64,000 nucleotides of DNA from Lingula anatina (taxonomy: Eukaryota; Animalia; Brachiopoda): positions 6,944,001 through 7,008,000 of the forward strand of contig CM120640.1 in NCBI GenBank assembly GCA_051362555.1, given 5' to 3'. The notes beneath the pieces were generated by a model. That model saw nothing but the letters and a program-made list of their open reading frames with translations. It was not told the DNA's origin and searched no databases. This document shows positions 60,099 to 62,956 of the stretch, piece by piece. The position numbers and the translations under genes were made by a program. Position 1 is the stretch's first letter. Each line of letters opens with the position of its first letter.

Positions 60099-62956
60099 CT
60101 AACAACATTTCTTCTTTTTCTTTCCACTGCTTCGACTGAGCTGGATTGTATCCCTGGCATTTTCTTGAACCCTGGCTTGCTGATCTTTCTTGCTCTTCAA
60201 AACTAGGTCAGTGATTGCATAAAACATCTGAAATCACAGTAATCAAGTTATGAATCACCATAATCAATCAATAAATTTTGGATGTCATATTGATCTCAAA
60301 TTTATCATCATGCATGTATTAGCAACATTTTTTGTCCTTCTTTATAATACGGCCTTGTTGAAGTTGAAATCCTTTAGGCTCTTCTTGTTTTTTAGTTTGT
60401 TGTTCTTTCTTCATTTTCAGGGCTAATCCTGCGATTGCATGAAACATCTGAAACAACAATCAGCACCAAAAACATTGAATAGCATCTTTTTTGGACAAAA
60501 ACGCTGTTATTAAACCATGCTAATTACCCAAATCATGTATCAGGAAATATTGTTATTATAACACACATATTAGTACCACCTATTTAGGCTTTGCCTTCTT
60601 CCTACCTCTTCTACATTTTTGTTGTCCTTTGCACTGGTTTCAAACAACTGGATCCCCATCTGTTCAGCAAACCTTTGTGCATCATGTGTTAGAACCACCT
60701 TGCCATCAGGGTTGTCATCTTTGTTCCCAACTAGAACAAATTCCATATAAAGTATTATGCAAGGACTACAGTGTACATACTGAATTGTTTTCCTTCAAAA
60801 TGTGAGCATATTTACACACATGGTTTGTTGTGATAATTAAAGAGCGACATCTCCCTAGATTACATGCACATCTAGGTTTGCAAATTGCAATAACAGCACT
60901 TCTGAAACTCAGTAAGCCCAACCTTTGCAACTCACTACCAAATCAAGCTATACATGAACAGTACATCGTATACTCACCTAAAATCCTATTCACTACATCA
61001 CAGTTTTGATCTATTTCATGTAACCATCGTTTGACATTGGCAAAAGATTCTCCACTAGTGACGTCGTAAACAACTATAACCCCATGTGTTCCTCTGTAAT
61101 AACTGAAAAACATAACATGGAATATGTATAACTTTACATTAAGGCAATAAGGTATAGGCAATATAAACACTTCCTTTTTCATGCTCTACAGTTCTAAGCA
61201 AAATTTATTCATTCCAGAATTGCAAATTTGTTTTCAAAATCCATGATTGGTGGATACTGCAAAATTCATATCTGAAAAAAAAAAAAAGAAAGAAAAAGAA
61301 AACAGCTTGCAAATTTTTGGATAAAGGTCTCATCTTTTTGCCTTACTACCTAAAATTTTGCTGACAAGAAAATATATTAGGGGTTCCATGTTATCATCAT
61401 CAGTATATCATCAATACTGACACAAAGTTGTTGGTCTTCAATGGTTAACTTTTCCCTAATACATCATATCTCTGCAATGCATTCATGTCTATGTGACCTA
61501 CAGTGTGCTGCTGGTCAACATATTACTTTAAAATTCTGAAACTTGCTACATGGATATTTACATTGGGGAGGTTTTCATTTATACAACCAATACACTGATC
61601 CTGTAACATACTTCAAGTTTAAGTGAAGGCATTTCAAAATAACAAGCGTTTTAAAAATTATTTATACAGGTACATTCCACTGCACTATACAAATTATTTG
61701 CATAGAGAAAAATACTTGCAGAATACAAATAAATTCTCTCTAGCACAATAGAAAGAAAACTGCACTCTTTAGCCCTCACTACTGCCAAGCAGAACAAGCA
61801 CCTTCATTAACATATATCTCCTCAGTGTCTGATCTTATTGAACAACCAGACATTAAAAGCATGTCTATTATGCATCAGTAGTCACAGATCAATGGTAAGG
61901 GTTTACTGGTCAGAACTTTCATGGATTAAGTTTTCCTCAAAATCTAATTATCTTTGCTAAGATAAAAGATGTGCTCCCCAGTCTTACAGAAATGCCAGAA
62001 TAATAAAGCTGCATCAAAACCAGGAAGCATGATGATGAGGACGTCATGTTTGTTTAACTTACGTTGATGTAATGGTTCTAAACCTTTCTTGGCCCGCTGT
62101 ATCCCAGATTTGTAGTTTTACCTTTTCACCATTCACTTCTATAGTGCGGATCTTAAAATCCACTCCTATTGTGGTAATATATGTACCTGGAATACAAAAA
62201 ATCAACCTTACATTTAATGGCGCTTCGCTAAAAATGGGACAAAAAGAATGCATATGCAAGCACTTGCTATCTTGCCAAAACTGGTGAGTACTTTGACAGT
62301 ATGGCTTTCTTTACTTACAACTGATCAAAAACCTGTTTTGCACTCCCCACACAAAATATCAAACTGTCAACTTGGCAATGTTTACATCCCTGTCCTTTAA
62401 TCCAAACAATGGTTGAAACATAAAATTTAAGAAAAGAAAATCATCTTTCAGCATACTGCTTACTTAAAATACCAGAGGTAAAATAACATGACAATACTAC
62501 AAATGAAAACAAATATGAGACAGGAAACATTTCGCTGGAAAGCAATCTGGTTAAAAGCACTGTATTTTAAATAAGGAAATGACTCAACAAAAAAGTCAGC
62601 ACAAGCTCAGTATACAGACATTGGCATATCTTGATTGTTACTTATCAGTATGCTTCATTGCCCTGTTGAATGTTACTGTCTGATTTCTAGTAGCATTTAC
62701 AAGATAAAACTAGACAAAATATAACTGAATCCAATGGGGGCAATACATAAATTATAAATACTCAAATATGATAGATCTCTCAAATCACAAAGGGGAGAAA
62801 CTGGGAAATGTATTCCATCTTCCGCAGTTGTGAAATTGCTCATATATTATATGTATGTTTCAGAGTGACATTATCATATACATCAAGTTATAACTAAATG
62901 CTTACCTGAAAATGTGTTATCTGCAAATCTCAATAATAAGCTGCTTTTACCCACTC
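60099..62956 (-). CDS. RAB35: Ras-related protein Rab-35, 5'-partial (first coding exon not found in window)
   Basis: Exons 62956-62906 ([17 protein letters not shown]), 62186-62063 ([13 protein letters not shown]...[15 protein letters not shown]), 61102-60978 ([15 protein letters not shown]), 60730-60606 (VGNKDD...ETSAK), distal last exon 60227-60099 ending GKKKKKCC*. Confidence 0.95.
60319..60447 (-). CDS. RAB35: Alternative (proximal) last coding exon of RAB35
   Basis: TTTCAG|ATG acceptor in phase 0; [42 protein letters not shown]; same 129-nt length as the distal exon. Confidence 0.85.
   Translation of the reverse strand: MFHAIAGLALKMKKEQQTKKQEEPKGFQLQQGRIIKKDKKCC

What the first reader, a model, noticed from the sequence alone, without database searches (positions are those of the whole stretch)
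60099..60447. RAB35 has a duplicated terminal exon encoding two alternative prenylated C-terminal tails
Seen: after the ETSAK exon there are two 129-nt exons, both starting TTTCAG|ATGTTT in phase 0 and ending Cys-Cys-stop: [42 protein letters not shown] and [42 protein letters not shown]. They are strongly diverged, yet both keep the frame, length and CC motif. Known: the Rab35 polybasic tail directs plasma-membrane targeting, and CC is the RabGGTase site. Inference: alternative acceptor choice makes two isoforms with one GTPase core but different helix 5 and hypervariable region (KKDKK vs KKKKK), possibly a membrane-targeting switch. I do not recall this being described for Rab35.
Basis: partly seen in the sequence, partly recalled or inferred. 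Interest (0 to 1): 0.8.

Follow-up and report, generated by a model that had tools for sequence, protein, structure and literature searches.

The report
Second tail exon in invertebrate Rab35
The brachiopod Lingula's gene for the membrane-traffic switch Rab35 carries two old copies of its last exon, each encoding a tail with a lipid-anchor motif; RNA uses the second copy almost always and the first is likely a rare isoform, databases already predict both, and sea hare and land snail records show two tails too, but what the swap does is untested.

Summary
Lingula anatina Rab35 has two intact 129-nt last exons, A (60447-60319) and B (60227-60099). RefSeq already predicts both tails (X2 = A; X1 and X3 = B).

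In four RNA runs, 428 reads join exon 5 to B. No join to A is listed (threshold 3 reads). Depth on A is zero in two runs and 2.5-5.5% of exon 5 in two. B is the default; A is at best rare.

A does not look like neutral debris: synonymous sites are saturated, yet acceptor, frame and CC-stop survive. Charge differs little (+4 versus +5 in the last ten residues), so a strong membrane-targeting switch is weakly supported.

New here: Aplysia and Bradybaena records also show two Rab35 tails on identical cores, and the second tail is conserved in four snails. That origin is probably separate, but AU tests do not decide it.

The design is known from KRAS, CDC42 and RAB28; my searches found no paper on it for Rab35. 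The scan's notes held no Rab35 case, only duplicated tail exons in other genes.

The parts
62906..62956 (-). Rab35 coding exon (end of P-loop, 51 nt); the first coding exon lies upstream, outside the window
   Evidence: AG/GT ends and frame; match to RefSeq models
62063..62186 (-). Rab35 coding exon (switch I and II, 124 nt)
   Evidence: loose read ends at 61102 run on into this exon (209, 18, 91 and 78 reads)
60978..61102 (-). Rab35 coding exon (125 nt)
   Evidence: joint 60978>60730 seen in 194, 21, 76 and 63 reads
60606..60730 (-). Last shared coding exon ('exon 5' here; NKxD and ETSAK motifs); its phase-0 donor at 60606 serves both tails
60448..60605 (-). 158-nt intron up to acceptor A
   Evidence: depth 0 in X1, X4, X7 and 1.6 in X9 in bin 60502-60592
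60319..60447 (-). Terminal exon A (proximal, rare): helix 5, hypervariable region, KKDKKCC-stop; tail of RefSeq X2, XP_013411313.1
   Evidence: joint not listed, depth 0, 0, 3.4 and 5.1
60228..60318 (-). 91-nt spacer: intron and acceptor region for B, 3' UTR if A is used; no AATAAA/ATTAAA, one donor-like site only inside A; one TGCATG starting at 60314
   Evidence: depth in X7 and X9 similar to that on A (3.5 and 3.8)
60099..60227 (-). Terminal exon B (distal, dominant): helix 5, hypervariable region, KKKKKCC-stop; tail of RefSeq X1 and X3
   Evidence: joint 60606>60227 in 235, 23, 106 and 64 reads
58500..60098 (-). Shared 3' UTR, at least 1.6 kb; its end lies beyond the stretch laid
   Evidence: continuous depth to 58500; stranded runs X1 and X4 fit minus-strand RNA

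Best explanation
An old tandem duplication of Rab35's last exon left two competing 3' splice sites behind one donor; the far copy (B) makes nearly all the mRNA, and the near copy (A) is likely a rare, cell-type-restricted isoform whose tail is predicted to be lipid-anchored to much the same membranes while changing partner binding or regulation. Shown: the anatomy, dominance of B, and selection on both copies since the duplication. Splicing to A would turn the spacer and exon B into 3' UTR and add no downstream junction within the stretch laid, so such mRNA would likely escape nonsense-mediated decay and use the same poly(A) region (inferred). Both proteins keep the GTPase core to residue 159 and a CC end that Rab geranylgeranyl transferase would modify (established Rab biochemistry; untested here). 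The likely functional difference is fine tuning, not relocation. Helix 5 and the linker are replaced, and A has no Ser/Thr in its last 20 residues where B has four, which would remove possible phosphorylation next to the basic patch (inferred, by analogy with KRAS4B, recalled). The TGCATG just after A's stop matches the Rbfox motif (recalled) and could favour A in nerve or muscle; this is only a lead.
For: Selection: A versus B pS 0.81 (saturated), pN 0.34; codons 1-17 dN 0.21, dS 1.8; identity by codon position 27, 28 and 17 of 42. A neutral copy keeps AG, open frame, CC and stop in 0.3% of 200,000 simulations at 0.5 substitutions per site, without indels. Flanks are unrelated (20 of 60 and 13 of 60 identical). 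Acceptor A has a pyrimidine tract as good as the other five acceptors (13 of 20 versus 12-16). RefSeq predicts tail A in X2. In run X7, depth on A (3.4) equals that on the spacer (3.5), falls to 1.1 in the bin with the acceptor (1.4 expected if spliced) and to 0 in the intron. At 2.5-3.8% use about 2.5 junction reads are expected, and these stay under the listing threshold about half the time. The same two-tail design is kept in snails.
Against: No A joint is listed in 4 of 4 runs laid (4 of 9 offered; 6-30% of each read). X1 has 235 B joints and zero depth on A (upper 95% bound 1.3% if none exist). X9 has intronic depth (1.6), so its signal may be unspliced RNA. X7 and X9 reads are diverged from the window (about half at 90-95% identity), so intron reads could have failed the 92% cut-off and mimicked splicing. 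RefSeq X2 also has an odd N-terminus lacking the start of the Ras domain, and its read support was not visible to me. A has a very long branch (1.47 and 3.21 versus a median of 0.17-0.27), and all 120 other tails score better against B than against A, which fits relaxed constraint. No relative of tail A was found (both weak searches). TGCATG is expected in a 91-nt stretch 3.7% of the time and was picked after the fact.
Confidence: 0.58

Rival explanations
1. Exon A worked for a long time but is now a silent or decaying relic; only B matters, and RefSeq X2 rests on stray splicing.
For: No listed joint in 4 of 4 runs and zero depth in 2 of 4; very long branch for A and a short one for B; odd X2 model. 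The selection test compares A with B only and cannot show that selection acts today.
Against: Acceptor, frame, length, basic patch and CC-stop are all intact. Reads from a diverged population still lie on A at 92% identity or more, in a pattern that fits splicing in X7.
Confidence: 0.22
2. One reading: A and B send the same GTPase to different membranes, because the Asp in KKDKK weakens electrostatic plasma-membrane binding.
For: In mouse macrophage-like cells the Rab35 tail alone sets localisation, and two K/R-to-E changes already move it to internal membranes (PMC7450177). A has net +4 versus +6 over the last 12 and last 15 residues. Snail second tails have 3-4 basic residues in the last 10 versus 4-5 in first tails.
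Against: Two K-to-E changes remove four charge units; A differs from B by one to two locally and by none over 42 residues. 32 of 117 other Rab35 tails have +4 or less in the last 12. A is rare in the RNA examined.
Confidence: 0.14
3. A acts at the RNA level: rare splicing to it mainly lengthens the 3' UTR by 220 nt and changes mRNA stability or transport, and the frame is kept only so that the product stays harmless.
For: A has no poly(A) signal of its own, so A mRNA would carry spacer and exon B in its UTR. CDC42 isoforms differ in mRNA localisation through their 3' UTRs (10.1101/366369, abstract).
Against: The two mRNAs would share the whole distal UTR. No unusual RNA fold (z -0.87) and no long inverted repeat. 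The snail second tail is conserved residue by residue (67-93%), which points to protein-level selection there.
Confidence: 0.06

Closest known systems
KRAS exons 4A/4B (KRAS4A and KRAS4B)
   Same: Two homologous last coding exons give one GTPase core two prenylated hypervariable tails; one isoform dominates (PMC9882654, section 13).
   Different: KRAS tails use different second signals, and the paper derives 4A from an NRAS exon. Here both tails are polybasic plus CC, and the choice is between two acceptors with no donor after A's stop.
CDC42 alternative last exons (prenyl and palmitoyl isoforms)
   Same: Alternative C-termini on a small GTPase (10.1101/366369, abstract; PMC9882654).
   Different: CDC42 changes the lipid motif and has separate 3' UTRs; the Lingula tails keep the same CC motif and share the distal UTR.
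RAB28 exons 8/9 (isoforms 1 and 2)
   Same: A Rab with mutually exclusive, visibly homologous last exons, each ending in a cysteine motif (CAVQ, CSVQ; PMC9882654 Suppl. Fig. 9).
   Different: Rab28 is farnesylated on a CAAX motif (PMC11254824, passage), and its exons cover the tail only; in Rab35 the swap includes helix 5.
Human RAB35 isoform 2 (NP_001161078)
   Same: Same gene with an alternative C-terminus.
   Different: It skips exon 5, shifts frame and loses the CC motif; it is not a duplicated tail.
RefSeq predictions: Lingula Rab35 X1/X2/X3 (XP_013411312.1, 313.1, 315.1) and Aplysia X1/X2 (XP_005093960.1, 959.1)
   Same: The Lingula records are this gene and both its tails; Aplysia shows the same switch point.
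   Different: Automatic predictions only; no study found. Lingula X2 joins tail A to a non-canonical N-terminus.
Tandem exon duplication-derived substitutions
   Same: 77 of 236 human events are C-terminal (PMC8373072, passages), and convergent origin in orthologous genes is common (PMC9741552, passages).
   Different: Those papers attribute C-terminal swaps to alternative poly(A) use; here the proximal exon seems to have no poly(A) site of its own.

Membership tests
Rab35 subfamily | Ras-family G domain closer to Rab35 than to Rab1 | tested here: met
   PF00071 205 bits; Rab35 chains E 1e-98 versus Rab1 1e-67; exact matches named Rab-35
Rab35 subfamily | Polybasic cluster before a CC end | tested here: met
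   Five K/R in the last 10 residues of both tails, CC-stop in both
Rab35 subfamily | Geranylgeranylation and plasma-membrane or endosome localisation | not testable with these tools
   Inferred from the motif and from PMC7450177
Tandem exon duplication-derived C-terminal substitution | Two adjacent homologous exons in one gene, same phase | tested here: met
   74 of 129 nt, 19 of 42 aa, both phase 0, 91 nt apart
Tandem exon duplication-derived C-terminal substitution | Only one copy can be coding in a transcript | tested here: met
   A ends in its own stop, so B is non-coding whenever A is used; reads to B skip A
Tandem exon duplication-derived C-terminal substitution | Both junctions are used in RNA | tested here: inconclusive
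   B: 428 reads. A: no listed joint in 4 of 4 runs, low depth in 2 of 4; RefSeq predicts it
Tandem exon duplication-derived C-terminal substitution | Purifying selection on both copies | tested here: met
   Saturated dS, helix dN/dS about 0.11, neutral survival 0.3%; historical, not present-day, evidence
Tandem exon duplication-derived C-terminal substitution | The alternative exon is conserved in related species | tested here: inconclusive
   No brachiopod relative was reachable; the snail second tail is conserved but may be a separate event
KRAS4A/4B- or CDC42-type membrane-targeting switch | The two tails carry different targeting signals (different lipid motif or large charge difference) | tested here: not met
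   Same CC motif; net charge +4/+5 (last 10), +4/+6 (last 15), +7/+7 (all 42)
KRAS4A/4B- or CDC42-type membrane-targeting switch | Isoforms localise or act differently in cells | not testable with these tools
   Needs imaging or interaction assays

The most novel reading that the evidence does not exclude
Rab35 gained a switchable second tail twice in lophotrochozoans, in Lingula and in euthyneuran snails including Aplysia (or once in their ancestor, with later losses), and the second tail is a regulated, probably neuronal isoform with its own partners or membrane behaviour. That would make Rab35 a natural experiment on what a Rab's helix 5 and hypervariable domain decide when core and lipid anchor stay the same.
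Probability: 0.3. Interest if true: 0.62.

Novelty: new member of a known kind. Interest (0 to 1): 0.4.

Why it matters
How much a Rab's hypervariable tail decides its location is a long-debated point, and Rab35 is a case where the tail matters (PMC7450177). A survey of 167 human RAS-superfamily genes found alternative membrane-targeting tails only in KRAS and CDC42 (PMC9882654). Two natural CC-ended tails on an identical Rab35 core would allow a clean comparison. The snail pair is the better test: the second tail is more conserved there (mean 76% identity among 4 species) than the first (61% among 5), and Aplysia neurons are an established model (own knowledge). For Lingula alone the value is modest: the exon is rare in RNA, already predicted, and of a well-known splicing class.

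Tried and rejected
No genome assembly was held, so there was no genome-wide check. No listed run is on record as an RNA holder (no evidence either way); raw-read runs added by species label were laid instead. Only one successful read lay was possible, on 4 of 9 runs and on 58500-61200, so the upstream junctions, the UTR end and five runs remain unseen.

Searches for relatives of tail A gave only the Lingula record (1 of 7 candidates) and 0 hits among 50%-identity representatives. That library returned not even the Lingula protein, so the blank is uninformative.

The metagenome scan (13 of 64 parts scanned, best 80 of 573 kept) returned about 13 Rab35-like transcripts and no snail record. None of the 80 loci held two tail matches; the contigs are 1-1.5 kb, so this is weak.

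Rejected: (1) A as a cassette included before B, because A carries its own stop; (2) an RNA-structure switch (z -0.87; only short, weak inverted repeats); (3) a recent duplication or assembly artefact, because synonymous sites are saturated and flanks unrelated; (4) other apparent pairs as duplicated exons: Mya P0050 diverges late and lacks CC, and the two Limulus records differ in the core. I considered one ancient lophotrochozoan duplication because A resembles the chiton tail (55%); trees neither support nor reject it. No structure or complex prediction was run, since the tail is expected to be disordered.

Full report
Observation. The minus strand holds five-sixths of a Rab35 gene: four shared coding exons (62956-62906, 62186-62063, 61102-60978, 60730-60606) and two candidate last exons, A (60447-60319) and B (60227-60099), 91 nt apart. 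Both are 129 nt, follow TTTCAG, begin in phase 0 and end Cys-Cys-stop. They share 74 of 129 nt and 19 of 42 residues ungapped. Exact matches identify the gene as Lingula anatina Rab35. RefSeq isoform X2 (XP_013411313.1) ends in tail A, and X1 and X3 (XP_013411312.1, XP_013411315.1) end in tail B. Only X3 has the canonical N-terminus; X1 and X2 begin with sequence that lacks the start of the Ras domain (for X2).

RNA. Nine raw-read RNA runs were offered by species label, and four were laid on 58500-61200, 6-30% of each run being read. The joint 60606>60227 appears in 235, 23, 106 and 64 reads (428 in all). The joint 60606>60447 is not listed in any run; listing needs 3 reads from 2 starts. Depth on A is 0 in X1 and X4, 3.4 in X7 and 5.1 in X9, that is 2.5% and 5.5% of exon 5 depth (3.8% in X9 after subtracting intronic depth). 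In X7 the profile fits splicing to A with read-through to B, and about 2.7 junction reads would be expected, missed by the threshold with probability 0.49. Against this, X9 has intronic reads, and X7 and X9 come from a diverged population whose intron reads may have failed the identity cut-off. In X1 the share of A is under about 1.3% if no unseen reads exist, or 2.6% if two do. So B is the default, and use of A is suggested but not shown.

Selection. Between A and B, pS is 0.81 (saturated) and pN 0.34; over the first 17 codons dN is 0.21 and dS 1.8. The flanks are unrelated. A neutral copy would keep acceptor, frame, CC and stop in 2% of simulations at 0.3 and 0.3% at 0.5 substitutions per site, with indels ignored. 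A was therefore constrained for most of its history. This does not show constraint today. A is the faster copy: all 120 other tails examined score better against B, and its branch is the longest or second longest in both trees.

Mechanism. A has no canonical poly(A) signal behind it, and the spacer has no donor-like site (one lies inside A). The choice is therefore between two acceptors for one donor, and an A mRNA would carry the spacer and B as extra 3' UTR (inferred). No RNA structure stands out. Both products keep the core to residue 159 and a CC end. PMC7450177 (parts 1-2 of 3 read) shows that the Rab35 tail sets localisation in a charge-dependent way, with two K/R-to-E changes moving it to internal membranes. 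The two Lingula tails differ less: +4/+5 over 10 residues, +4/+6 over 15, +7/+7 over 42. 32 of 117 other Rab35 tails are at +4 or lower over the last 12. I therefore favour tuning through helix 5, the linker and loss of the Ser/Thr-rich stretch (0 versus 4 in the last 20 residues) over relocation. A TGCATG directly after A's stop (Rbfox motif, recalled; 3.7% by chance in 91 nt, post hoc) is a lead for tissue control.

Relatives. Among the best 120 of 968 hits plus P0005, three species had identical cores with tails under 62% identical: Lingula, Aplysia californica (X1 and X2, consecutive accessions) and Bradybaena similaris (BFZ18754.1 and BFZ18752.1). In both snails the first 159 residues are identical and the switch falls at the residue where Lingula has its intron. 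Lymnaea and Candidula records carry the second snail tail; Bulinus, Biomphalaria and Elysia carry the first. Second tails are 67-93% identical to each other, first tails 50-71%, and the two types 42-56%. I could not read snail genomic DNA, so tandem exons there are inferred from protein records. The other 848 hits were not shown, so further species may have pairs.

Origin. Trees used 43 columns and rows I chose (57, then 27; close duplicates, most unnamed rows and the CC-less Mya record left out). The second snail tails form a clade (100/100 and 100/99) inside the heterobranch tails (94/97 and 90/97, not starred), which points to a duplication within snails. Lingula A is least like those tails (31-33%) and most like the chiton tail (55%). 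It is unplaced in the first tree and joins the chiton at 84/74 in the second. AU tests reject neither A+B (p 0.44) nor A plus the second snail tails (p 0.31). A separate origin is my estimate at about 65%, not a result.

Known systems. PMC9882654 (passages, section 13 and the text of Suppl. Fig. 9) surveys 167 human RAS-superfamily genes. It finds distinct membrane-targeting tails only in KRAS and CDC42, lists RAB28 with mutually exclusive last exons, and shows human RAB35 isoform 2 as an exon-5 skip without CC. PMC8373072 and PMC9741552 (passages) describe tandem-exon substitutions as a class with 77 human C-terminal cases and frequent convergence; I did not read their supplements, which could list invertebrate events. 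10.1101/366369 was seen as abstract and outline, PMC11254824 as passages, and the 1996 Rab28 paper only as a title in its reference list. Searches for a duplicated Rab35 tail (listings and abstract starts only, open-access library) showed no such paper. The scan's notes returned no Rab35 case, but eight notes on duplicated or alternative tail exons in other genes.

Verdict. The feature is real and already predicted in databases, and it is a new member of a known kind. The Lingula exon A is most likely a rare functional isoform (0.58), possibly a relic (0.22). The proposed membrane switch is possible but weakly supported (0.14). The snail parallel is the most useful addition. Interest 0.40.

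Noticed in passing
P0023/P0073, P0029/P0059, P0049, P0124 (protein records): Euthyneuran snails have two Rab35 tails on one core; the second tail is the more conserved one (67-93% among Aplysia, Lymnaea, Bradybaena, Candidula).
   Followed up: partly
window 44539-56087 (+): A multi-exon gene with ARM, SAM and TIR matches (weak for ARM and TIR), likely SARM1 (name recalled), converges on the Rab35 3' UTR. The UTR is still covered at 58500, and five AATAAA hexamers lie at 57365-57687 on the minus strand.
   Followed up: partly
window 22333-27506 (-): At least two tandem folate-receptor-family genes (PF03024 in three segments tested).
   Followed up: no
window 12309-15563 (-): A Menorin-domain gene (PF10223, 274 bits) with further Menorin-like segments upstream.
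   Followed up: no
P0003, P0004: RefSeq X1 and X2 use an alternative 5' exon, outside the window, that removes the first strand and the start of the P-loop; such proteins would probably not bind GTP normally.
   Followed up: no
window 58500-60100, runs X7 and X9: These runs differ from the window at many fixed UTR positions (about half the reads at 90-95% identity), far more than X1 and X4; this suggests a distinct population or cryptic species under one label.
   Followed up: no
P0125, P0131; L036:740-979: Oyster tail-only open frames start at the same Met-Phe boundary, and an unspliced metagenome transcript has an intron there, so the last intron position is widely shared.
   Followed up: partly
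window 38387-39451 (-): A tandem repeat with a unit of several hundred bases, seen as repeated open-frame translations.
   Followed up: no
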